From Naegleria gruberi (lineage: Eukaryota): 64,000 nucleotides of DNA. Shown here in pieces: positions 53,238 to 64,000 of this stretch. Position 1 is the stretch's first letter, and the number at the start of each line of letters is the position of its first letter. The stretch lies in assembly GCA_000004985.1 (NCBI GenBank), contig GG738875.1; one strand, written 5' to 3'. The notes under the pieces were generated by a model. The model was not told the DNA's origin and did no database searches. It was given only the letters and a program-made list of their open reading frames with translations. A program made the translations under genes and the position numbers.

Positions 53238-56048
53238 TTAAATTCTTTCTTCTTCTGTTCTATCCTCAATACCTGAATAGTCAACCGAATCAACAACTTC
53301 CTGCTCTTGGTGACCTTCCTGTTGTTCTTCATAGGTTTCATCCTCTGGATCTTGATTTTCATCGTGTTGTTCTTCAAAATCATTATCAAAATCCTCAAAC
53401 TCTTCCTCTTCCACTTCTTGGACAACTTGTTGTTGAGGTTGATATTCTTCCTGCTGTTGATCATCATAATAATTATTATTATTATCAGTATTATCCTGTG
53501 AAACATGAACCACTGAAAAATCTTCAGTTCTGAGAGTGTCTGATTGAGGAGCCTCAGAGGTGTCAAAATGAGAATTATCAAACTCTTCAAAATCGCCAAA
53601 AGATGTCTCAGTCTCTCCTGTTGTCTTGATTTCACTAACACCCAAAGAGGCACTAAGTGGGAGATATGCATCCGTTGCAGTCATTATCTCTATTGGATTC
53701 TGGTTGGCTTGAGTTTGGAACATTTGAGATGTATCATGTTGCGGTTCATAGTTTTGATTCTCATTTCCTTCATCATATTGTTTAAGGAAATCTTCTGCTG
53801 ATTGAGGTTGATTTGGAGCATATCCATTGGATTCTTCTTCTTCTTGTGTTTCTTCAACCTCAATAACTGGCGTTGGATCATGATCGCCATGGAATTGAGA
53901 AAATTGATAGCCTTGATCTTCTTCCTCTTCTTGTGTTTCCTCAACCTCAATAACTGGCTTGGTATTGATTTCCTTCTCTTTCTTCTCCTTCTTCTTTTCC
54001 TTTTTATCCTTTTTGTCCTTCTTGTCCTTCTTTTTCTTTTTTTCTTCTTCAGATGAAGATGAAGAGGAAGAGTCTGTACTCTCTTCGACCTCTTCAACTT
54101 TTCTTGGTGATGGTTTTTTCACACTAGACTCTATTATTGGAGATCTCTTTTGACTACTCTTAACGTCCTTCAAGGCTTGCATGCCGTTTTCCTTCTTGAT
54201 TTGATTGTAATTATCTCGTAAGAGTGTTATCAACTTGTTTTGATTCTTCCACAATTCCTTTTCTCTGAATGACATTCCTCTTGTATCAACTCTGGTCATT
54301 GAAGAAAAGAGTTTGTTTGGATTGTCAACAAACTCTTCCATAATAGCTTGATAACTTCTCTGTAAATTATTGTACCTGTCATTATTTTCCTTAATAGTTT
54401 TATACAGTTCTGAGGGTATGGTAATCATTTCCTCTGGTTCTTCCTCTTGTTTTTGGCTCTTTCTTGCCAAAAGTTTAAGTGTATCGGCTAGCTGAGGAAT
54501 GAGGCCACTCATTGTGGTTCCTTCTCTTTCATCATCCTCTTGTTGCTGATGTAAATTTTCCAAAACATGTCTAGCCAATTCCTCCTCCAACCGAACTGAC
54601 TTGTCCACTTTTTTTGAAGTTTTCATACTACTCGTTGCACTTGAGGGGGTTACAGTTTTTTTCTTTGATACAGAAGATTTCGTTGATGAGGAAGCAGATT
54701 GTGGTTTTCTTACTGTTGATGTTCCATGTAAGACATGATACCAATCCTTGGTTGGTTGTTCAAGGTAAGAGTTTGTATTTCTTCCAAGTGTTACGTTTTT
54801 CTTTCTCATACTCAATGAGTCAACTGTCTTTGTACTATTGCTTAGAGAACTGGGTCTGGAAGGGTTTGCTGATGAGGGCCTTTTAATTGGTTGCGTATTT
54901 AAAACCTTTCCTGATGAGGTAATTGATTTTTTCTTGACCTTCTTTTTCGTTTGTCTTTCCTCCACGAAACGTTGAGGCTCCCCTTTCAACTGTCTTGAAA
55001 TATCAGCCAGTTGATTTGCCATCGTATTGATTTGATTCTCTATTTGTCCTCTCATCATGATTGTTTGAGCCTGAGTATCCTTGTAGTGTTGTACAAGAGT
55101 AGACAGTGCTCCCATCTCTCCGTTTGCCATTGTACCTAGCATTGGATTGTATGTATTTTGTACAGGTTGATTTTGGAATGTGTTATCAGTTACAGTAAAC
55201 AGAGGATTTCTTGTGACAGCTCCTGTTTGCATTCTCAATGACTTGTCCATGGTACCAGAGTGTGGACCTCCATCAGTCATTGGTCTCTGTAATGAGAAAC
55301 TCTTGGAAAAGTTTTGAGTCAAGTATTCATTAAAATTATCTATTGGACCTGCCTTAACAAGTGACCTCAATCTCACATCCATATCAATCACTCCAACATC
55401 GTATCCTCTATCATTTTTAATTGTAAATGTTCCACTAATGGTACGTTTCTGTGGTATTCTTTCACCTTTTGGAGCATCAATTTCATCCGAAACTTTCAAT
55501 TCATTGAGAGGTATACTAACACTTCCTATAAGAACTGGTTTCCAATTACCACGACCCATATTAGGATCAGCCATACTTCCTCCGTATGTCATGTCAGTAG
55601 GTGAGGCTGTCAAAATGAATAAAAACACATAGAGGGGTAATGTTTGGATATATTGTCCCAATTCCATTCTTTCCATTGAAAATACTACACTTTTTCCTGT
55701 TCTAAATAACATATTATGTGATGAGACTTTTTCCTGATTCTTCATCATACCAGTTCCATAAAAACTTGTTTGCTTAAATCCTTCTTTAAACATTCTATTT
55801 TCTTGGGTGTCATCTCTTCCATAGGGACCCTCAGGTTTTTGAATGTACATTAGAGGAAACTCCCACAATCTGAATCCTATACAACTGTCATTGGAGAGGA
55901 GTGGATTTGTAGTTTTATAGATGAAATGAGAAACTTCGTGAATGTAGACATCAAGAGACCATAAACTGAGAATAGAGTATGTCACTTTAATTTTAAGTGA
56001 ACCTTGAAACTTACTTTGAGTCAACTTCTGATATTTCTTCCTCTTCAT
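53238..56048 (-). CDS. Large hypothetical protein with K/E-rich and acidic tandem-repeat C-terminus. Probably contiguous with ORF 56011-56412, with a frame change.
   Basis: 936-aa ORF. Repeat PVIEVEETQEEEE...x2. KKKKDKKDKKDKKEKKKEKKEKE. The upstream ORF overlaps by 38 nt in another frame. Confidence 0.45.
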   Translation of the reverse strand: MKRKKYQKLTQSKFQGSLKIKVTYSILSLWSLDVYIHEVSHFIYKTTNPLLSNDSCIGFRLWEFPLMYIQKPEGPYGRDDTQENRMFKEGFKQTSFYGTGMMKNQEKVSSHNMLFRTGKSVVFSMERMELGQYIQTLPLYVFLFILTASPTDMTYGGSMADPNMGRGNWKPVLIGSVSIPLNELKVSDEIDAPKGERIPQKRTISGTFTIKNDRGYDVGVIDMDVRLRSLVKAGPIDNFNEYLTQNFSKSFSLQRPMTDGGPHSGTMDKSLRMQTGAVTRNPLFTVTDNTFQNQPVQNTYNPMLGTMANGEMGALSTLVQHYKDTQAQTIMMRGQIENQINTMANQLADISRQLKGEPQRFVEERQTKKKVKKKSITSSGKVLNTQPIKRPSSANPSRPSSLSNSTKTVDSLSMRKKNVTLGRNTNSYLEQPTKDWYHVLHGTSTVRKPQSASSSTKSSVSKKKTVTPSSATSSMKTSKKVDKSVRLEEELARHVLENLHQQQEDDEREGTTMSGLIPQLADTLKLLARKSQKQEEEPEEMITIPSELYKTIKENNDRYNNLQRSYQAIMEEFVDNPNKLFSSMTRVDTRGMSFREKELWKNQNKLITLLRDNYNQIKKENGMQALKDVKSSQKRSPIIESSVKKPSPRKVEEVEESTDSSSSSSSEEEKKKKKDKKDKKDKKEKKKEKKEKEINTKPVIEVEETQEEEEDQGYQFSQFHGDHDPTPVIEVEETQEEEESNGYAPNQPQSAEDFLKQYDEGNENQNYEPQHDTSQMFQTQANQNPIEIMTATDAYLPLSASLGVSEIKTTGETETSFGDFEEFDNSHFDTSEAPQSDTLRTEDFSVVHVSQDNTDNNNNYYDDQQQEEYQPQQQVVQEVEEEEFEDFDNDFEEQHDENQDPEDETYEEQQEGHQEQEVVDSVDYSGIEDRTEEERI

Positions 56049-56677: not shown

Positions 56678-58735
56678 TTAATGGAAAGCACCTCCATTAA
56701 CATTCAAAGTGTTACCACCCAAATTGTAAATGTAACCATACAAGTTGACATTGTTAAAGTTGAAAACACCCTTAGTCAAGACGTTACCATAGAATGGACC
56801 ATTAACAGCAACACTGTTACCAATAACCCAGAAAACATTGTTTTGAGTGGCACCATTGGTGAAAACAAAGTTGATATTGTTGGCATTCAAGTTGGTGCTC
56901 AACTTTAAGACAATCTTACCAGTACCAGAGAAGGTAACCTTGCTGTTACCATTCAAACCTTGTGGGAAACAGTAGACACCAGCAGTGAAAGTCAAACCAG
57001 CACTTGGAATGTTTTGATCCAAATTGCTTTGAGTACAAGTGGCAGCAAACAATTCATCATACTTGGCAATGGCATTTTCAATAACTTCAGCAGATTCACC
57101 ATTAGCAACATTGACAGCATAACCAGAGGCAGCAACGAGTTTTTGAACAGCAAAGGCTCTATCAGTGGCAACACTTCCTGGAACAGTCAATGAGGCAGAG
57201 TTTTGAACCAAGATGGATCCCTTTGAAATGACCTTGTATGGAGTCAAGATAGTACCAAAGGTAGTATCATAGTCACATGGCAAGACATTTGGAACGACAT
57301 ATGAGTCAGTAGTGAACTTCAAGTATGGAATTGTCTTATCTTCAAAGTATCCATCGAAAGTCAATTCAATAGTGAGAGCAGTGTAACCTTGAGCTGGATT
57401 TGGGAAGAAGACTTCATATTCGAATGGGTTTCCAGTAGCCTTTGGAGCAACAGTAACAGCAGTGAAAATTCTACCAATAGTGGTTTGTCTGAAATCTCTA
57501 CCATTTGGATTGTTGGCAGACCACAACTTGACAGCAGTAGGAACCTTACCATTCAAAATGTTCAACTTGACATTAACACCAGCAGCAGTGTAAGTGTGAG
57601 AGAAGGTATATTCAGGAAGTTCAATATTTTTCAAGACAGCATAGTAGAATGAGGCAACAGTCAAGACAACATCGGAACCAGTCATACCGTGACCAGTATT
57701 TGGAATATATCTCAAGTGCTTGTTCTTTCTATTTGGCATATCATTATAACTCAAAGTACTCATATCTGGCCAGAAGAATTCATCACCCATAGAGTTGACC
57801 ATATATTTTCTGTACTTGGCAAGATCTTCCTTCCATTCGAATGGATCAATAACTTCACAGAGCTTGGTAAAACCATAAGAGTTGACGTGTGGAGTGAAAC
57901 CAGCAGCAATATAATCATACATGGCAATTGGGAAGTCACAGAGAGAATTGTAAATGTGCTTGATAGCCTTTTGAGTATTTGGAATTTGAATAACGAGTGG
58001 AATGAGAGCCTTAACTCTTGGATCATTGGCAATACCAACTGTCCAAGTAGTCCAACCTCTCTTTGAGGCACCAGCAACAGTGAATTTTTCAATAGTGACA
58101 CCTGACACTTTGGTTGGCACAAAAGATTGAGTAGTATCCAATGCCAAGAGAGATGCCTTAGTCATAGGAAGTCTTGGAATCCACTTAACGTCCCTTGGGA
58201 AGTCGACTATATGCTTCCAAGCATATCCGATAATACCATCTTCAACTCTAACTTGATGCAATGGATCATTGGCATATGTCAATGGTTGATTAGGAATCAT
58301 CTTGACAGTGACACCAATAGTTTTACCAACAGTAGCCATAGCAATAGTGATTGGATCACCAGTTGGAAGACCATCAGTGGTATCTCCGTTAGTAATATAC
58401 ACAAAAGCTTCCTTTAAGCTTTTATCCAAATTGGTTGGAACAACAACTTCGAGATAGTGGAACCACAATGCACGATAACCAAATTCTTCTGGCAACCATT
58501 CAACTGAGGTCATATTAAGTACATATACAGTAGCACCAGTAACGGTGAATTCACTCAATAATTGATATGAATATTTTGGAGTTGGCTTATTTACATAGTC
58601 GGCCATAACTTTCTTATAGTCGATAATTTTGGTTGGGTCAGCAGCAATGTCAAATTGGTCTTCTGCATTGGAAAGGGCAGCAACAAGAGCCAAAATAACA
58701 GCCAACAAGACAATCAAGCTCTTTGAAAGCTTCAT
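56678..58735 (-). CDS. Secreted protein with signal peptide, large N-terminal domain (possibly PhoPQ-activated-pathogenicity-related-like) and C-terminal DUF3494 ice-binding-protein-like beta-helix domain.
   Basis: Signal peptide MKLSKSLIVLLAVILALVAALSNA. C-terminal LTFTAGVYCFPQGL...INFVFTNGATQNNVFWVIGNSVAVNG...GNVLTKGVFNFNNVNL matches the DUF3494 pattern (PGVY...AVFIFQ...NVFWQVGSSATLG...). Confidence 0.55.
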   Translation of the reverse strand: MKLSKSLIVLLAVILALVAALSNAEDQFDIAADPTKIIDYKKVMADYVNKPTPKYSYQLLSEFTVTGATVYVLNMTSVEWLPEEFGYRALWFHYLEVVVPTNLDKSLKEAFVYITNGDTTDGLPTGDPITIAMATVGKTIGVTVKMIPNQPLTYANDPLHQVRVEDGIIGYAWKHIVDFPRDVKWIPRLPMTKASLLALDTTQSFVPTKVSGVTIEKFTVAGASKRGWTTWTVGIANDPRVKALIPLVIQIPNTQKAIKHIYNSLCDFPIAMYDYIAAGFTPHVNSYGFTKLCEVIDPFEWKEDLAKYRKYMVNSMGDEFFWPDMSTLSYNDMPNRKNKHLRYIPNTGHGMTGSDVVLTVASFYYAVLKNIELPEYTFSHTYTAAGVNVKLNILNGKVPTAVKLWSANNPNGRDFRQTTIGRIFTAVTVAPKATGNPFEYEVFFPNPAQGYTALTIELTFDGYFEDKTIPYLKFTTDSYVVPNVLPCDYDTTFGTILTPYKVISKGSILVQNSASLTVPGSVATDRAFAVQKLVAASGYAVNVANGESAEVIENAIAKYDELFAATCTQSNLDQNIPSAGLTFTAGVYCFPQGLNGNSKVTFSGTGKIVLKLSTNLNANNINFVFTNGATQNNVFWVIGNSVAVNGPFYGNVLTKGVFNFNNVNLYGYIYNLGGNTLNVNGGAFH

Positions 58736-59458
58736 TTGTTATGTGTGGATAGTTGAGTTGTTTTTTTTTGTTATGTTGATTGTTGAGGAGCAATTGACTG
58801 GGTTTTTAAATCTTTGATTGCGCAACTCCAGATTGTGAGACACAGTATTGCGCAAAAATAAATAGTATTGTAAAGTGTGAAATGTAACTTACACAACACT
58901 TTAGACTGCAAACTTCCCTTTTTATCGTTTGCCAAAATTGTGACCAGTTGGTAATTTATAGAAGTGATGTGTAAAATGAAAGTGCTACCTTACCCTATGA
59001 ATGTAAAGAGCGCTATGGTTTTTTGAATTAAATGTAATCTTTGGACAACACTTGGCATGTTTGTAATCTTCAAACCAGATCGAGAATTTCTTCTACTTCG
59101 TATTAGAGAAGGAAATTGAACTGTGTGCCGACTTCAATGTGTCATTGTGTTGAAAATAAATACCAAATGTTGAAGTGTCAACTGATTATTTGAACAAGAA
59201 TGGTTTACAGCTTATTGTAGTGGAGCGATTTAATGGTTTTTGATTGACTAAGAGGGTTAGAAAATTGTTTATGGAACTCTACAGCCATTTCCTAAAGATC
59301 GTTACTAAAGTGTTGGACATGTCTTAGTGCTTTCAGTGAACTGAAGGTGTGGTTAAGGTTATGATTGTAATAATATTGTGGTCAACTGTTTATCCACAAC
59401 AACCGTAGATGCTCAAACAAAATCCAACATAAATGAAGTATGGTTGGCTTTTCAATTA

Positions 59459-60955
59459 TTACCAGAACACATTGAAGTATGGTTCGATTTCATGTTCATA
59501 AAGAAGATCATCATCTTGTTCAATTTTCACAAAGGCAAAACAATTCACCTCCACAATGTGATCCTTGGCTTGCTCTTCATTGTCAACCTGGTAAACTACT
59601 TGATCGCAAACATTGCAAAATCTATTACTATTTTTGTAAACTTGTAGAGATTCAAATTTGAGAGGACATTTGTAGATACATTCGCATTGATTGACTAAAT
59701 TCCATTCATACTCTTTAATTCTGTAATATTTCTTTCGTTCTTTTGAAATATTAATAGTAGGATTATGTATTTTGATGTGATTGATTCTTCTTCTAAGAAC
59801 GCAAAGCCAATTCTTGATATTTAGGTTGTTTCCATTAAAGTTTGGAAAATAAAAACAAACTAATGGTTTCCAAATTTCCAATTGAACTCTTTCAAATGCT
59901 GAACTTTCTTCATTGACGATAGAGGTGATGTTATCGACAACATGACAAAGGGCTCCAGAATTATCTGATTGTGGATCTATTCTTCTATTGAAGAATAGAC
60001 TCAATAATGATTGGTTTACCCATCGCAAATCTATTCAATTCTGATAAATTCAGAAACTTCCAATCAGTATTAGAATCTCAGATGGCAATTCATAGATAGT
60101 AAATTGTGAAATAGATTCTCCAGTACCCAAATCCACATTAATACTACAAATATTCATTAATCCATTTAAAATACTGTGTGGAATAGATGCTGAATTGGGA
60201 ATATCCAATTCTAATCCAATACTTGCCACATTATCCATTGCTTCCTGAACTAACTTATTCAATTCGGGTGTGGTCGTTAAATTCATTAATTTCATATATG
60301 AACGGTTCCAAACCACAGGTGAATTCTCATAGTAATTCAACACCTTCAATCCATATTCAATTACTGGCATCATGTCTAACATTTCCAATAAATCAGCTTG
60401 CATTTTTCCAATTTTCTCTCCCTCACTCAAAATTAAACAATCTCTACAAGATTCCACCTGTCCCACTATTGTTCGAAACACAACTCCCAATTGTTGAAAC
60501 ATTGGAGCAAGTATAGGAACTGGAATGGTGGCGGTGAATCCACTTCTGATGTAAATATTGCGTGGAGATCTTTCTCCAATTTTTGCCCTTGTTTCAAATT
60601 TGAAAGATTGAATTTGTTCAATCAATTCTTCAATTTCTGATGAATTTGTAAAGATTAGTCCAACATTTCCATTCAAATATTCGCAAATTTTGAGTAATGA
60701 CTCTGGATTGTGTTTCCTCTCCGAGGGTTTCACATTAAATTGAATGTCCTGAGCCAAGTTTCGAATAGCACTCTTGATCAATGTATTCTTTCCTTTCAAT
60801 AATATTGCTCTTCCTCTCAATTTCATTCGAATTATTTGCAATTGATCCGATTTCATACGAGTATCTATTTCAACAATAATTACATTCGAATGATCATGAA
60901 AATGTTGAATGACATCCTCGAATTTTACACTATTTTCATCATCATTCATTTTCAC
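59459..60955 (-). pseudogene. P0/Mrt4 (uL10)-like domain + F-box + Cys-rich C-terminal domain protein, disrupted copy. ORFs 60050-60955 and 59459-60028 are separated by a compensating -1/+1 indel pair with two in-frame TGA codons.
   Basis: Colinear with the intact paralog 61274-62689. Relative to it, ...agtttc-tgaattt... lacks a T and ...gggtaaaccaatca... has one extra base. Between the two, the frame reads F*IYQN*. Confidence 0.55.
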
Positions 60956-61273
60956 TTATTATTGATTTTAAAAATATGATGAACGTGCAATTGGTTCCAA
61001 GAGTGAGTTGCCGTATTTTTTTTTAATTTTACAGTAAATTTCAGAATTTACTTTTTTAAAGAGCAATTACAATCTTTGTAATGTGTTAATGAGATTAAAA
61101 TATTCAGATATTTATTAAGGTTCAATGAGATTCTCTTTACAATTTGCACAGAGTTTATTGTGGGTGCTGGTTTAATGTCTGGTTTCACACTTGGTTTACT
61201 TTCCATTGACATACAATGCATTGGATATTCTCAAATCGACTGAAAAGGAGTGAAAGGTTGCTGCTCGTTTGGC

Positions 61274-62689
61274 TCATTCATCCCAATAAATAATTCCCAT
61301 AGCTAAATCATCATCGTATTCATCCCCTCCTTCCACAAAAGCAATGCAATTTCCCTTAATGATATGATGTTTGGCTTGTTCTTCACTACCAACTTGGTAA
61401 ACTATCTTGTTGCAGACATTACACATTCTACTGGAAGAGGTGTGAAGTGGAAGAGAATCGTATTTGAGAGGACATTTGTAGATCCATTCACATTGGTTGA
61501 TGAGATTCCATTCGTAACTCTTAATTGCAAAAGATTCGTTTCTTGCTGATGCAAGGTTGACTGAAGGCATGTGTAGCTTGATATGGTCAATTCTTCTTCT
61601 GAGAACGTGGAGCCAATTCTTGATATTTAAATTATTTTTCCTAAAGTTAGGGAAGTAGAAACAAACTAATGGTTTCCAAATTTCCAATTGAACTCGTGTA
61701 AATAGTTCACTCTCTTCATTTATCATAGCAATTGAATTCTTGAGTGATTTCTCAATTGAATGAGATTGTGAAATAATTCTTCTATTGAAGAATAGACTCA
61801 ATAATGATTGATTACCCATCGCAAATCTATTCAATTCTGATAAATTCAAGAAACTTGCAATTAATATCAAAATTTCAGATGGTAATTCATTTACAGTAAA
61901 TTGTTGAATGGAATTAATTGTTCTCAGTTCTACCAAAACTCGACCGACATTCAATAATCCATTGAAAAGACTATGTGGAATAGATGCTGAATTCGGAATA
62001 TCCAATTCTAATCCAATACTTGCCACATTATCTACTGCTTCCTGAATTATACTATTCAAATTTAGAGATGCTCTCAGGTTTTCATATGTTTGATTCCAAA
62101 CCACGTGTGAATTTTCATAGGAAGCTACCACTTTCAGTCCGTATGCAATCATCGGTTCCATCTTCAACAATTCCAAAAAATCTGCCTTTTCCTTTGTAAT
62201 TTTCTCTCCAGCTCTCAAAAGTAAAAAATCTGTCGATGCATATACATCCTGTTGAGCTATGTCTCCAACCTTTGCCTTTGCTTCAAATTTGAAAGATTGA
62301 ATTTGTTCAATCAATTCTTCAATTTCTGTTGAATTTGTAAAGATTAGTCCAACATTTCCTCTCAAATATTCGCAAATTTGATAAAGAACTTCTGGATTGT
62401 GCTTCCACTCTGATGGTTTCACATTAAATTGAATATCCTGAGCCAAGTTTCGAATAGCACTTCTGATCAATGTATTCTTTCCCACCAATAATTCGGCCTT
62501 CTCTCTCAATTTCATTCGAACTATTTGTAACTGATCCGATTTCATTCGAGGATGTATTTTAATAATAATTACATTCGAATGATCATGAAAATGTTGAATG
62601 ACCTTCTCGAATTTTGCACATTTATGAGAGAGACCCTTCTTTTCGGAATGAAATTGTTGTTTTGAAGCTGATTCGTCCAAGTTTTTCAT
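61274..62689 (-). CDS. Ribosomal P0/Mrt4 (uL10)-like domain fused to an F-box and a Cys-rich C-terminal domain (intact paralog).
   Basis: QLQIVRMKLREKAELLVGKNTLIRSAIR, LRGNVGLIFTNSTEIEELIEQIQSFKF and LLRAGEKITKEKADFLELL match uL10/P0/Mrt4 conserved blocks. F-box-like LPSEILILIASFLNLSELNRFAMGNQS. C-terminal CPLKYDSL...CNVCNKIVYQV. Confidence 0.6.
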   Translation of the reverse strand: MKNLDESASKQQFHSEKKGLSHKCAKFEKVIQHFHDHSNVIIIKIHPRMKSDQLQIVRMKLREKAELLVGKNTLIRSAIRNLAQDIQFNVKPSEWKHNPEVLYQICEYLRGNVGLIFTNSTEIEELIEQIQSFKFEAKAKVGDIAQQDVYASTDFLLLRAGEKITKEKADFLELLKMEPMIAYGLKVVASYENSHVVWNQTYENLRASLNLNSIIQEAVDNVASIGLELDIPNSASIPHSLFNGLLNVGRVLVELRTINSIQQFTVNELPSEILILIASFLNLSELNRFAMGNQSLLSLFFNRRIISQSHSIEKSLKNSIAMINEESELFTRVQLEIWKPLVCFYFPNFRKNNLNIKNWLHVLRRRIDHIKLHMPSVNLASARNESFAIKSYEWNLINQCEWIYKCPLKYDSLPLHTSSSRMCNVCNKIVYQVGSEEQAKHHIIKGNCIAFVEGGDEYDDDLAMGIIYWDE

Positions 62690-62807
62690 TCCAACTCAAC
62701 CTCTGAAGGAATATCAATGCATTTCCAGCTGGTTCAGTAACCTTTCTAGTCATCAACTCCATTCGAGAATCGTAAAATATCGTCGATCCACCCTCAAACT
62801 CTCCATC

Positions 62808-63353
62808 CTATTGAGAATTCAGATAAATAATGAGAGTGAGATAACTCTTTGTTTTGTTCTTGTGATCCTCAAAGCTGCCATCGACGTGTTTGTTGAAATA
62901 ATGCCCTGGTTTATACTTGCATAATCTCCAACGAGGATTTATACTTGCTAAGTGCAATGTTCTGCCATCCTTACTCAATGTTTGTGGCAGATGTTGCTTT
63001 ATACGATTCCAGACTATTTCAGTAAATTTTGGATCGTCACTCATTAAACGATCATTAAATCGATCATTATAGGCATAGCAAAACTTATCCGCATCCTCAT
63101 ATCCCATCTTTTCACTCAACTCTATCATTAATTTACATTCGTCTTTTGAAAGCACTTGATCCAATACGAAACATGGTTTCTTTACTTGTTCAACCTCCTC
63201 AACTGTTTTTCTTGAAACTCGTGGACACCAATTATTCGAATCCATCAGAAGCATATTTTTTTGTATTTGTGAAATATTCTCATCATTAGAATCATTCAGT
63301 ATTGGTGCATAGACCATCTCGTTCCATCCTGTAGGAGCAGAAAGTAAAGTCAT
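62808..63353 (-). CDS. 2-oxoglutarate/Fe(II)-dependent oxygenase (prolyl-4-hydroxylase-like) N-terminal part. The ORF is terminated by a TAG inside the conserved core. The conserved continuation is at ~62640-62807.
   Basis: RWRLCKYKPGHYFNKHVDG...SYLTLIIYLN matches the P4H/2OG-FeII HxD...TxLxYLN block. Immediately after the TAG the same frame encodes DGEFEGGSTIFY...AGNALIF, matching the EGGET.F...G.ALLF blocks. Confidence 0.5.
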   Translation of the reverse strand: MTLLSAPTGWNEMVYAPILNDSNDENISQIQKNMLLMDSNNWCPRVSRKTVEEVEQVKKPCFVLDQVLSKDECKLMIELSEKMGYEDADKFCYAYNDRFNDRLMSDDPKFTEIVWNRIKQHLPQTLSKDGRTLHLASINPRWRLCKYKPGHYFNKHVDGSFEDHKNKTKSYLTLIIYLNSQ

Positions 63354-63516
63354 TTTTTTTTAATTTTGTGTGCTTTTTTTATTTTGCACTTTTAATTATT
63401 TTACAAAGTTATTAATAGAATTTTTACTTTTTTTAGAATGATTTCAAAGTTCATCATCAAATAACCAGTTATTAGTTTACAATATTTACAATATTTACAA
63501 TGAGGTGCTGATTAAG

Positions 63517-63855
63517 TTACATTAGTTTTTCAGCCACTTTATCCCTTAGTTCTTCAAGTTGCTCTGCACCTAATACTCGCTTTTGTGTCTTGTTTGAAAC
63601 AAGAACAGTTGGTTTAGTCCCGATGGCACCTCCTTCTACATTTCCAATTCTAAATGTAGTCATCACAATTCCTGCAACGTTTGGTTGACCATTGACAGTT
63701 CTGTCATCATTCAACATTTCTTCGTTATCTTCTTCTTCTTGAGAACTTGATTCGTCCACAGTTTTGAAAACAGTTGCTTGGTCACCAATAGCACATTCTC
63801 TTGCTTTCTTTATATCAAAAACTGAAACCTCATCCTTGCATTCTTGTCCTGTCAA
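63517..63855 (-). CDS. Hypothetical protein, possibly one exon of a multi-exon gene.
   Basis: 112-aa ORF. No recognisable motif. Confidence 0.25.
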   Translation of the reverse strand: MTGQECKDEVSVFDIKKARECAIGDQATVFKTVDESSSQEEEDNEEMLNDDRTVNGQPNVAGIVMTTFRIGNVEGGAIGTKPTVLVSNKTQKRVLGAEQLEELRDKVAEKLM

Positions 63856-64000
63856 TTGAGGAATGTTTACAATTTCGTCATCTTCGCTGCTATCCTTTAC
63901 AACATAGCAAGAATTTGTTCCAACTGCAGCTTGCTTACACTGGTTGATTTCAAATACTGAAGAAACAGAGGAGGAGTAGCACTCTTACAGTTTGAATTTC

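What the first reader, a model, noticed from the sequence alone, without database searches (positions are those of the whole stretch)
59459..62689. Tandem paralogs fusing a ribosomal-stalk P0/Mrt4 (uL10)-like domain to an F-box
Both genes open with a ~230-aa domain colinear with the uL10/P0/Mrt4 family. The conserved blocks are QLQI(I/V)RMKLRG+A.LL.GKNTLI.SAIR, NGNVGLIFTNS.EIEELIEQIQSFKF and L(I/L).(E/A)GEKI.K..ADLLE(M/L)L. They then carry a clear F-box (LPSEILILIASFLNLSELNRFAMGNQ) and a Cys-containing C-terminal domain (CPLK(F/Y)(E/D)SL...CNVC..(V/I)VYQV). The uL10/Mrt4 fold normally docks on the 25S/28S rRNA GTPase-associated centre or on pre-60S particles. An F-box normally recruits Skp1/cullin. 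I do not recall this combination as a described architecture. It suggests an SCF adaptor that uses a P0-mimic to target ribosomes or pre-60S particles, or an Mrt4-like assembly factor that recruits ubiquitination machinery. The fact that it exists as a locally duplicated pair argues it is a real, evolving gene family rather than a chimeric assembly.
Basis: partly seen in the sequence, partly recalled or inferred. Interest (0 to 1): 0.85.

Follow-up and report, generated by a model that had tools for sequence, protein, structure and literature searches.

The report
P0 stalk protein fused to F-box
Two neighbouring Naegleria gruberi genes join a diverged copy of the ribosomal stalk-base protein P0, without its acidic tail, to an F-box ubiquitin-ligase adaptor module; the architecture is real, selected and apparently unique, but its function is untested.

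Summary
The window is Naegleria gruberi. Gene 1 (61274-62689, minus strand) is one 471-aa ORF. It contains a P0/uL10 N-terminal domain, both P1-P2-binding helices, a probable F-box, a conserved helical segment and a four-cysteine domain.

Gene 2 (59459-60949) has the same layout plus an intact P0 domain II. In this window two 1-bp indels place two stop codons inside its F-box. An independent, syntenic assembly carries gene 2 as an intact 496-aa ORF.

The P0-like part derives from P0, not Mrt4 (PDB E 2.5e-21 versus 0.03). It lacks the acidic factor-recruiting tail. N. gruberi has a canonical P0 elsewhere.

The C-terminal half belongs to a Naegleria family of stand-alone F-box proteins of about 240 aa. 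Another member carries a CCT-delta apical domain.

Both halves are under purifying selection: dN/dS is 0.19-0.24 between strains and 0.33 between paralogs.

Among 5.8 billion proteins, only these two genes and their counterparts in that second assembly combine P0 with this module.

The likeliest role is an SCF adaptor that engages P0's partners, meaning stalk-base rRNA/uL11 or P1-P2 dimers. That role is inferred, not shown.

Verdict: a new variant of a known kind, of moderate-to-high interest.

The parts
61274..62689 (-). Gene 1: complete 471-aa ORF. NCBI XP_002675980 / EFC43236, 'ribosomal large P0-like protein', N. gruberi NEG-M.
   Evidence: It is 98.5% identical (7 aa differences) to the 471-aa ORF in the independent contig L004.
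62264..62614 (-). Gene 1 P0/uL10 N-terminal (rRNA-binding) domain, aa 26-142.
   Evidence: Pfam PF00466 E=4.1e-13. AF2 pLDDT is above 90. Foldseek top hits are P0 in 80S ribosomes, E=1.9e-12. GKNTLI and GNVGL.F motifs are kept.
62084..62263 (-). Gene 1 remnant of P0 domain II and the return strand, aa 143-202. It lacks 33 aa relative to gene 2 and P0.
   Evidence: Alignments. 14 conserved domain-II columns are deleted. RL10P_insert scores only 13.4 bits, below cutoff. The deletion is also present in L004.
61925..62053 (-). Gene 1 P0 spine: helix I (I215, A218, V222, I225), loop (IPNS 231-234), helix II (L241, G244, V248, V251). These are the P1-P2 dimer docking helices.
   Evidence: phmmer alignment to vertebrate P0, mapped on the silkworm P0 mutagenesis in PMC3616719. 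AF2 pLDDT is low here, as expected without partners.
61775..61885 (-). Gene 1 probable F-box, aa 269-305 (LPSEILILIASFLNLSELNRFAMGNQSLLSLFFNRRI).
61571..61702 (-). Gene 1 family-specific helical segment, aa 330-373 (IWKPLVCFYFP..NIKNWLHVLRRRI).
   Evidence: Invariant columns in the family alignment A2. dN/dS is 0.13.
61334..61504 (-). Gene 1 C-terminal four-cysteine domain, aa 396-452 (CEWIYKCPL..L..C..C...VY.V..E....G.C.AF). A zinc-binding role is presumed.
   Evidence: Four invariant Cys in A5. 1814 proteins match the whole-module profile A2 at E<=1e-3; most listed hits beyond about the top 60 match only these Cys-domain positions. No Pfam, NCBIfam or PDB match.
60050..60949 (-). Gene 2, part 1: ATG to the first in-frame stop (299 aa; NCBI XP_002675979, NAEGRDRAFT_49990). 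It contains the P0 N-terminal domain, intact domain II, the spine helices and the first 12 aa of the F-box.
60296..60574 (-). Gene 2 intact P0 domain II.
   Evidence: Pfam RL10P_insert E=2.1e-8, above cutoff.
60013..60056 (-). Gene 2 lesion: a 1-bp loss in a T-run (about 60054-60056) and a 1-bp gain within GCGATGGGTAAACC (60013-60026). Two in-frame stops lie between them. The shifted frame encodes LNLSELNRFAMG.
   Evidence: The second site is identical to gene 1, which looks like gene conversion.
59459..60028 (-). Gene 2, part 2: ORF homologous to the gene 1 C-terminal module (end of the F-box, helical segment, Cys domain). It is in the same frame as part 1.
   Evidence: It is contiguous with part 1 in the intact 496-aa ORF of L004.

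Best explanation
These are two tandem, selected, N. gruberi-lineage genes. Each encodes a chimeric F-box protein.

Origin (inferred from homology):
- A duplicate of the organism's own P0 (uL10) gene was joined to the 5' end of a member of a Naegleria-specific family of small F-box proteins.
- The P0 copy keeps the rRNA-binding N-terminal domain, domain II and both P1-P2-binding helices. It has lost everything after helix II, including the acidic tail that recruits translation GTPases.
- The F-box family member contributes the F-box, a conserved helical segment and a four-cysteine domain.
- The fusion then duplicated in tandem, and the two copies still exchange sequence by gene conversion.

Most likely mode of action (inferred, not shown):
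- The F-box binds Skp1-Cul1.
- The P0-derived half acts as a targeting or bait domain for P0's normal partners. These are the rRNA/uL11 stalk base of 60S or pre-60S particles lacking P0, or free P1-P2 dimers.
- An SCF ubiquitin ligase is thereby brought to the ribosomal stalk or its unassembled components.

In the NEG-M reference, gene 2 is a truncated allele or contains sequence errors. In a second strain it is intact.

Confidence by step: architecture real and selected, about 0.95. F-box acting through SCF, about 0.6. Target is one of P0's partners, about 0.45.
For: Architecture:
- Gene 1 is a single ORF.
- The same 471-aa ORF and an intact 496-aa gene 2 lie side by side, with the same downstream PhoPQ_related gene, on the independent contig L004.

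P0 identity:
- Pfam Ribosomal_L10 E=4e-13 and 9e-11, and RL10P_insert E=2e-8 in gene 2.
- PDB P0 E=2.5e-21 against Mrt4 0.03-0.1.
- AF2 pLDDT above 90 for aa 21-195, with P0 in 80S ribosomes as the top Foldseek hits.
- 19 of 27 N-terminal-domain columns that are at least 80% conserved in P0 are identical, including GKNTLI and GNVGL.F.
- The hydrophobic -5/-2/+2/+5 pattern of helices I and II is kept in both genes.
- The acidic tail is absent.
- A canonical N. gruberi P0 (P0208, 328 aa, with tail) lies elsewhere in the genome.
- The 34-37-aa GKNT..GNVG spacer is shared with heterolobosean P0. Other P0s have 22-26, a few 32.

C-terminal module:
- Stand-alone homologues of 166-268 aa occur in N. 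gruberi, N. lovaniensis and environmental contigs, E=1e-23 to 1e-41.
- The N. lovaniensis member has no P0-like ORF upstream.

F-box:
- F-box and F-box-like are the only recurring Pfam hits across the family, best E=3e-4 to 4e-5.

Selection:
- Paralog dN/dS is 0.33 overall, 0.07 in the F-box and 0.27 in the part downstream of the frameshift.
- Between strains dN/dS is 0.19 for gene 1 and 0.24 for gene 2. The excess of synonymous changes gives P=2e-5.

Gene conversion: identical codons are clustered, P=0.001-0.006.
Against: - There is no expression, interaction or localisation data.
- The F-box is below Pfam's curated cutoff, and a family F-box profile found no F-box protein among PDB sequences.
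- The P0-like part is only 35-39% identical to Naegleria P0. Naegleria P0 is about 45-58% identical to most non-heterolobosean P0s listed.
- 7 of 17 conserved basic columns are lost and the N-terminal domain's net charge is lower, so rRNA binding may be weakened or gone.
- Each copy in the reference carries a lesion: the gene 1 domain II deletion and the gene 2 frameshift.
- It was seen only in N. gruberi-type sequences. It was not found in the annotated N. fowleri or N. lovaniensis proteins, in JGI metagenomes or in viral contigs.
- The spine helices are low-confidence in the AF2 model.
Confidence: 0.55

Rival explanations
1. P1-P2 receptor version. The P0-derived half no longer docks on rRNA. 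It uses helices I and II to capture free P1-P2 stalk dimers, and the SCF complex then ubiquitinates them or proteins bound to their tails. This would control the pool of unassembled stalk proteins.
For: Both helices keep the hydrophobic pattern shown by mutagenesis to bind P1-P2. The segment NVASIGL.LDIPN.ASIPHS is nearly identical to Naegleria P0. Conserved basic residues of the rRNA-binding domain are partly lost.
Against: The N-terminal domain is among the best conserved parts between paralogs (dN 0.098, against 0.162 for the spine). It keeps the GKNT and GNVG core motifs, which would not be needed for a pure P1-P2 trap. No binding data exist.
Confidence: 0.2
2. Evolutionary debris. This is a young, lineage-specific chimera that is decaying or has no function tied to P0's partners. 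Its conservation would reflect recent origin and gene conversion rather than selection.
For: In the reference, gene 2 has two stops in the F-box. Gene 1 has lost half of domain II. It is found only in N. gruberi-type sequences. It is very diverged from P0. Gene conversion is detectable.
Against: Between strains, synonymous changes are strongly over-represented: 18 of 34 against about 20% expected, P=2e-5. Both ORFs are intact in the second strain. Paralog dS approaches 1 in the C-terminal module while dN/dS stays at 0.27. The gene 1 deletion is in frame, fixed in both strains, and AF2 still models a confident fold.
Confidence: 0.15
3. Variant stalk base without a ubiquitin role. The protein replaces P0 on a subset of ribosomes. 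The F-box-like helices and the Cys domain would serve as a different recruitment platform in place of the acidic tail, independent of Skp1 and Cul1.
For: The P0 part corresponds to a C-terminally truncated P0. The P0deltaC constructs used in PMC3616719 still assembled with P1-P2 on the ribosome. The F-box is below curated thresholds. The function of the Cys domain is unknown.
Against: The module is homologous to stand-alone proteins with no ribosomal part. The same family is joined to SPRY, Ras-like and CCT-delta domains, a pattern typical of modular E3 adaptors. The model superposes on Skp1-bound F-boxes.
Confidence: 0.07
4. Annotation or assembly artefact: two separate genes, a P0 paralog and an F-box gene, merged by chance read-through.
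For: A comparable N. fowleri 'fusion' of this module to an eEF1A-like GTPase does depend on a predicted intron that joins separate ORFs.
Against: In this locus there is no stop and no frame change between the halves in gene 1. The same junction is conserved in gene 2 and in an independent assembly. The junction region evolves under constraint.
Confidence: 0.03

Closest known systems
Eukaryotic ribosomal protein P0 (uL10), stalk base; canonical N. gruberi copy P0208
   Same: It has the Ribosomal_L10 N-terminal domain with the GKNT and GNVG motifs, domain II (in gene 2), and helices I and II with the P1-P2-binding hydrophobic pattern. It shares the heterolobosean-type long spacer in the N-terminal domain.
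   Different: It has no segment after helix II and no acidic tail (no PF00428). Identity to Naegleria P0 is only 35-39%. 7 of 17 conserved basic columns are lost. Gene 1 lacks half of domain II. About 215 aa of F-box/Cys module are appended.
Mrt4, the pre-60S placeholder paralog of P0
   Same: It has the same uL10 fold, lacks the acidic tail and is a non-ribosomal paralog of P0. Mrt4 structures appear among the Foldseek hits at E=5e-10 to 1e-9.
   Different: By sequence it is far closer to P0 (E=2.5e-21 against 0.03-0.1). It keeps the P1-P2-binding helices. It is a recent lineage-specific offshoot, not the ancient Mrt4 lineage.
F-box proteins (SCF substrate receptors such as Skp2, Fbw7, Cdc4)
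   Same: It has the LPxEIL..I..L motif and a three-helix F-box that superposes on Skp1-bound F-boxes in the model. It has a modular layout with separate interaction domains.
   Different: The F-box scores below the Pfam cutoff and lacks the usual Trp in helix 3. The added recognition domain lies N-terminal to the F-box and is a ribosomal-protein copy. No such combination appeared in the databases searched.
Naegleria stand-alone F-box/Cys-domain family (N. lovaniensis C9374_001344; N. gruberi NAEGRDRAFT_72562, _69407, _63199)
   Same: It is collinear from the F-box to the C-terminus, at 37-47% identity, with the same invariant residues.
   Different: Those proteins are 166-268 aa with only a short N-terminal leader. 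The window genes carry about 260-285 aa of P0 in front.
N. gruberi NAEGRDRAFT_75352 (P0069): CCT-delta apical domain plus the same F-box/Cys module
   Same: It has the same module and the same logic, with a fragment of an abundant proteostasis protein placed N-terminal to the F-box. It is a single ORF in an independent contig.
   Different: The captured domain is different (chaperonin apical domain), and the gene is single-copy at another locus.

Membership tests
uL10/P0 (eukaryotic stalk base protein) | Ribosomal_L10 N-terminal domain | tested here: met
   PF00466 E=4.1e-13 (gene 1) and 8.8e-11 (gene 2), above cutoff. AF2 model and Foldseek hits to P0 in 80S ribosomes, E=1.9e-12.
uL10/P0 (eukaryotic stalk base protein) | Domain II (RL10P_insert), gene 2 | tested here: met
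   PF17777 E=2.1e-8, 34.4 bits against a cutoff of 29.1. The same holds for P0201.
uL10/P0 (eukaryotic stalk base protein) | Domain II (RL10P_insert), gene 1 | tested here: not met
   13.4 bits against a cutoff of 29.1. A 33-aa deletion removes 14 conserved columns.
uL10/P0 (eukaryotic stalk base protein) | Two spine helices with the -5/-2/+2/+5 hydrophobic pattern that binds P1-P2 dimers | tested here: met
   Gene 1 has I215, A218, V222, I225 and L241, G244, V248, V251. The gene 2 equivalents are V, A, V, I and I, G, I, I. Residues were placed by alignment to vertebrate P0 and mapped on PMC3616719. Binding itself was not tested.
uL10/P0 (eukaryotic stalk base protein) | Acidic C-terminal tail with the conserved factor-binding end (PF00428, ..GFGLFD) | tested here: not met
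   No PF00428 hit. P0 homology ends after helix II and the F-box follows.
uL10/P0 (eukaryotic stalk base protein) | Incorporation into the 60S subunit at the GTPase-associated centre | not testable with these tools
   This needs ribosome fractionation or cryo-EM. Indirect evidence: 10 of 17 conserved basic columns are kept.
Mrt4 | Sequence closer to Mrt4 than to P0 | tested here: not met
   PDB Mrt4 chains score E=0.03-0.1, against 2.5e-21 for P0.
F-box proteins | F-box motif recognised by a curated profile | tested here: inconclusive
   F-box-like scores 18.7 bits against a cutoff of 24.3. It is the only recurring Pfam hit in the family, best E=3.4e-4 to 4.3e-5. The family F-box profile found no F-box among PDB sequences.
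F-box proteins | Three-helix F-box fold | tested here: met
F-box proteins | Binding to Skp1 | not testable with these tools
   No complex prediction or experiment was available.
Naegleria F-box/Cys-domain family | Collinear homology across the F-box, the IWKPL..RRR segment and the four-Cys domain | tested here: met
   E=1e-23 to 4e-41 to nine members. 25 invariant columns in A2.

The most novel reading that the evidence does not exclude
Naegleria may build SCF adaptors by fusing an F-box module to copies of core translation and folding proteins, here P0 without its tail and, at another locus, the CCT-delta apical domain. These copies would act as baits that slot into the partner-binding sites of the originals.

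On this reading the P0-F-box protein occupies the stalk base, or the free P0-(P1-P2)2 complex, in place of P0. That would turn the GTPase-associated centre into a docking site for a cullin ligase. It could serve for quality control of stalk-less 60S subunits or orphan P1-P2. Alternatively it could intercept pathogen factors that target these hubs.
Probability: 0.22. Interest if true: 0.8.

Novelty: new variant of a known kind. Interest (0 to 1): 0.58.

Why it matters
Ubiquitin ligases known to act on ribosomes reach them through their own dedicated domains. This statement rests on my own knowledge of the field, not on a tool result. An F-box protein that carries the ribosome-anchoring and P1-P2-binding parts of P0 itself would be a different solution, in which a ribosomal protein paralog is reused as the address label of an E3 ligase.

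If it docks on ribosomes, it offers a natural tool and a precedent for stalk-directed ubiquitination. If it traps P1-P2, it would be a dedicated pathway for orphan stalk proteins.

The CCT-delta sibling suggests a broader 'bait-fusion' habit in this protist. The practical limits are that the genes are confined to one Naegleria lineage and nothing about their function is known.

Tried and rejected
- Exact-sequence look-ups of gene 1 and P0002 found no contig. The cluster look-up later exposed the second-strain copies.
- A JGI metagenome scan with gene 1 found no relative. A viral-contig scan with the module alignment found none, so there is no sign of giant-virus origin.
- The afdb50 fold library was unavailable.
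- A profile of the family's F-box region against PDB sequences found no F-box protein.
- NJ trees of P0 domains were uninformative. The fusion branch is long and falls at the base, and support for grouping with Naegleria P0 is 4-33% (one search timed out).
- The N. fowleri 745-aa 'F-box plus eEF1A-like GTPase' protein was considered as a second fusion aimed at the GTPase-associated centre. It rests on predicted introns between separate ORFs, so it is not used as evidence.
- A very short intron (17 or 27 nt) or a double programmed frameshift to rescue gene 2 was considered and rejected as implausible. This was read directly from the sequence.
- Literature searches found no description of this architecture and no paper citing the ENA project PRJEB11402.
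- No tRNA or Rfam family lies in 58000-64000.
Full report
**Source and gene layout**

The window is from Naegleria gruberi. Gene 1 translates to a protein 100% identical to XP_002675980, 'ribosomal large P0-like protein [N. gruberi NEG-M]'.

Two paralogous genes lie head-to-tail on the minus strand. Gene 1 (61274-62689) is a single 471-aa ORF. Gene 2 occupies 59459-60949.

The duplicated DNA is confined to the coding regions, with a unit of about 1.7-1.8 kb. No tRNA or Rfam family lies in the region.

**Checking the observation**

Pfam finds Ribosomal_L10 above the curated cutoff in both genes, at E=4.1e-13 and 8.8e-11. It finds RL10P_insert above cutoff in gene 2, at E=2.1e-8.

Two details were missed. 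First, in this window gene 2 is interrupted inside the F-box. Compared with gene 1 there is a 1-bp loss in a T-run and, 36 nt downstream, a 1-bp gain. Two in-frame stop codons lie between them.

The F-box residues LNLSELNRFAMG are therefore encoded in a shifted frame. The original frame resumes as ORF 59459-60028. NCBI accordingly annotates only a 299-aa protein.

Second, gene 1 lacks 33 aa (99 nt) of P0 domain II. This removes 14 columns that are at least 80% conserved in canonical P0.

**Independent confirmation from a second assembly**

A cluster look-up revealed a second, independent assembly: ENA ERZ929261, run ERR1078381, a 9425-nt contig held here as L004. It is syntenic with the window.

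It carries gene 1 as the same 471-aa ORF with 7 amino-acid differences. It carries gene 2 as an intact 496-aa ORF, followed by the same PhoPQ_related gene.

At the lesion, L004 reads GGAAGTTTTCTG...GCAA-AGGTAAAC, while the window reads GGAAG-TTTCTG...GCGATGGGTAAAC. The window's second site is identical to gene 1.

So the full architecture exists for both paralogs. The disruption in NEG-M is a strain-specific allele, a conversion by-product or a sequence error.

**What the N-terminal half is**

It is P0, not Mrt4. phmmer against PDB sequences gives E=2.5e-21 to vertebrate P0 and E=0.03-0.1 to Mrt4.

An AlphaFold2 model of gene 1 has pLDDT above 90 for aa 21-195, despite the deletion. Its best Foldseek matches are P0 chains in 80S ribosomes, with E=1.9e-12 and a target-normalised TM-score of 0.71.

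In the N-terminal domain, 19 of 27 columns that are at least 80% conserved in P0 are identical, including GKNTLI and GNVGL.F.

Homology runs through P0 residue 254 or so. Baba et al. 2013 (PMC3616719) showed for silkworm P0 that F215, G218, V222 and L225 in helix I bind one P1-P2 dimer. I241, G244, L248 and I251 in helix II bind the other. A YPT loop lies between the helices.

By the alignment, gene 1 has I215, A218, V222 and I225, then IPNS at 231-234, then L241, G244, V248 and V251. Gene 2 has V, A, V, I and I, G, I, I. Both dimer-docking helices therefore keep their signature.

What is missing is everything after helix II, including the acidic tail. There is no PF00428 hit.

N. gruberi has a canonical P0 with the tail on another contig (P0208, 328 aa), so these genes are extra paralogs.

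Naegleria-type P0s are the nearest relatives by identity, at 35-39%. They share an unusually long GKNT..GNVG spacer of 34-37 aa, against 22-26 aa in most other P0s. Distance trees were dominated by the long fusion branch and did not resolve the origin.

The divergence is large. Naegleria P0 is about 45-58% identical to most non-heterolobosean P0s listed. Seven of 17 conserved basic columns are lost in each fusion gene. Retention of rRNA binding is therefore uncertain.

**What the C-terminal half is**

Searching with aa 257-471 finds stand-alone proteins of 166-268 aa in N. gruberi, N. lovaniensis and environmental contigs, at E=1e-23 to 4e-41. The N. lovaniensis member is named 'F-box domain-containing' by UniProt.

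These proteins are collinear with the window genes over three parts. The first is the F-box, the second a conserved segment (IWKPLVCYYFP..N.KNWMHVLRRR), and the third a domain with four invariant cysteines.

The N. lovaniensis gene has no P0-like ORF upstream. The window genes thus arose by adding a P0 copy to a pre-existing F-box gene.

The F-box itself is below Pfam's cutoff, at 18.7 bits against 24.3. A family F-box profile found no F-box protein among PDB sequences.

However, F-box and F-box-like are the only recurring Pfam hits across the family, with best E values of 3.4e-4 to 4.3e-5. The AF2 models show the three-helix unit.

The profile of the whole module matches 1814 proteins at E<=1e-3. 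Most listed hits beyond about the top 60 match only the Cys-domain positions. Many are proteins of about 80 aa that consist of this domain alone.

The two I examined lie on bacterial-type contigs. The domain has no Pfam, NCBIfam, PDB-sequence or structural match.

**Selection**

Between the paralogs, with the gene 2 frame repaired, dN/dS is 0.33 overall. It is 0.34 in the N-terminal domain, 0.07 in the F-box, 0.13 in the helical segment and 0.15 in the Cys domain.

In everything downstream of the frameshift it is 0.27, with dS of about 1. Most of the divergence therefore accumulated under constraint on both halves.

Between the two strains, gene 1 has 9 synonymous and 7 non-synonymous changes (dN/dS 0.19). 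Gene 2 has 9 and 9 (dN/dS 0.24). Synonymous sites are only about 20% of all sites, which gives a combined binomial P of 2e-5.

Identical codons between the paralogs are clustered, with a longest run of 31 codons (permutation P=0.006 for that run; P=0.001 for the three longest runs summed). This indicates gene conversion tracts, one of which covers the F-box.

**Rarity and context**

Among 5.8 billion clustered proteins, only these two genes and their second-strain copies join P0 to this module. JGI metagenomes and viral contigs gave nothing. No paper describing the architecture was found.

Within the same family, N. gruberi NAEGRDRAFT_75352 places a CCT-delta apical domain in front of the module. 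That domain scores Pfam E=6.6e-9 and PDB CCT4 E=1.3e-6. It is a single ORF in an independent contig.

Environmental relatives combine the F-box and Cys domain with SPRY or Ras-like domains.

An N. fowleri model joins the module to an eEF1A-like GTPase. That join depends on predicted introns between separate ORFs, so I do not rely on it.

**Interpretation**

Shown:
- A real, selected and apparently unique gene pair encodes [P0 without its tail]-[F-box]-[helical segment]-[four-Cys domain].

Inferred:
- The F-box recruits Skp1-Cul1.
- The P0-derived half supplies the address, by engaging the stalk-base rRNA/uL11 site on particles lacking P0, or P1-P2 dimers.

The N-terminal domain and the F-box are the most constrained parts. 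The erosion of basic residues keeps the P1-P2-trap version alive as a rival.

Decay, a non-ubiquitin stalk variant and an annotation artefact are less likely, for the reasons given under the rival explanations.

**Verdict**

The 'P0 mimic on an SCF adaptor' idea is the best available reading, and the 'Mrt4-like' alternative is not supported.

This is a new variant of known kinds, a P0 paralog and an F-box protein. It is confined to one protist lineage and has no functional data. Interest is moderate to high.

Noticed in passing
window 61334-61504 and 59528-59698 (Cys domain); loci L005 4001-4231, L006 856-1095: The C-terminal four-cysteine domain (consensus I.NCEF.FKCP..W..L..T....RFC..C...VY.....EL..H..GHCVA) appears to be a widespread, uncurated domain. 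1814 proteins match the whole-module profile at E<=1e-3, and most hits beyond the top ~60 cover only the Cys-domain positions. Many are ~80-aa stand-alone proteins; the two examined lie on bacterial-type contigs, one next to Lon protease and an ABC transporter. No Pfam, NCBIfam or PDB match was found.
   Followed up: partly
L002 123-1451 (ENA contig); N. gruberi NAEGRDRAFT_75352 (P0069): A sibling gene fuses a CCT-delta (TCP-1) apical-domain fragment to the same F-box/Cys module in a single ORF. This suggests repeated capture of proteostasis-protein domains by this F-box family.
   Followed up: partly
L003 1501-3849 (N. fowleri FDP41_004214, P0080): An F-box/Cys family member (277-aa ORF) lies directly upstream of an eEF1A-like GTPase with a degenerate P-loop. 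The annotation joins them into a 745-aa protein through predicted introns. Whether this fusion is real is unresolved.
   Followed up: partly
window 59459-62689 (both paralogs): Runs of identical codons between the paralogs (up to 31 codons; aa 105-139, 26-45, 67-84, 211-231 and 277-304 of gene 1) are more clustered than expected (P=0.001-0.006), indicating gene conversion. The +1 site of the gene 2 lesion matches the gene 1 sequence.
   Followed up: yes
window 56678-58735 (-): The downstream neighbour is a 685-aa secreted-looking protein. It combines a PhoPQ-activated pathogenicity-related domain (E=4e-94) with an ice-binding-like domain (E=1.2e-10). It is conserved in the second strain.
   Followed up: no
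N. gruberi NAEGRDRAFT_50526 (P0063), not in the window: Another family member has a ~400-aa N-terminal region before the F-box, with no Pfam or PDB match.
   Followed up: no
window 53238-56048 (-): A 936-aa ORF carries a MAP10 N-terminal domain (E=8e-11). It is unrelated to the finding.
   Followed up: no
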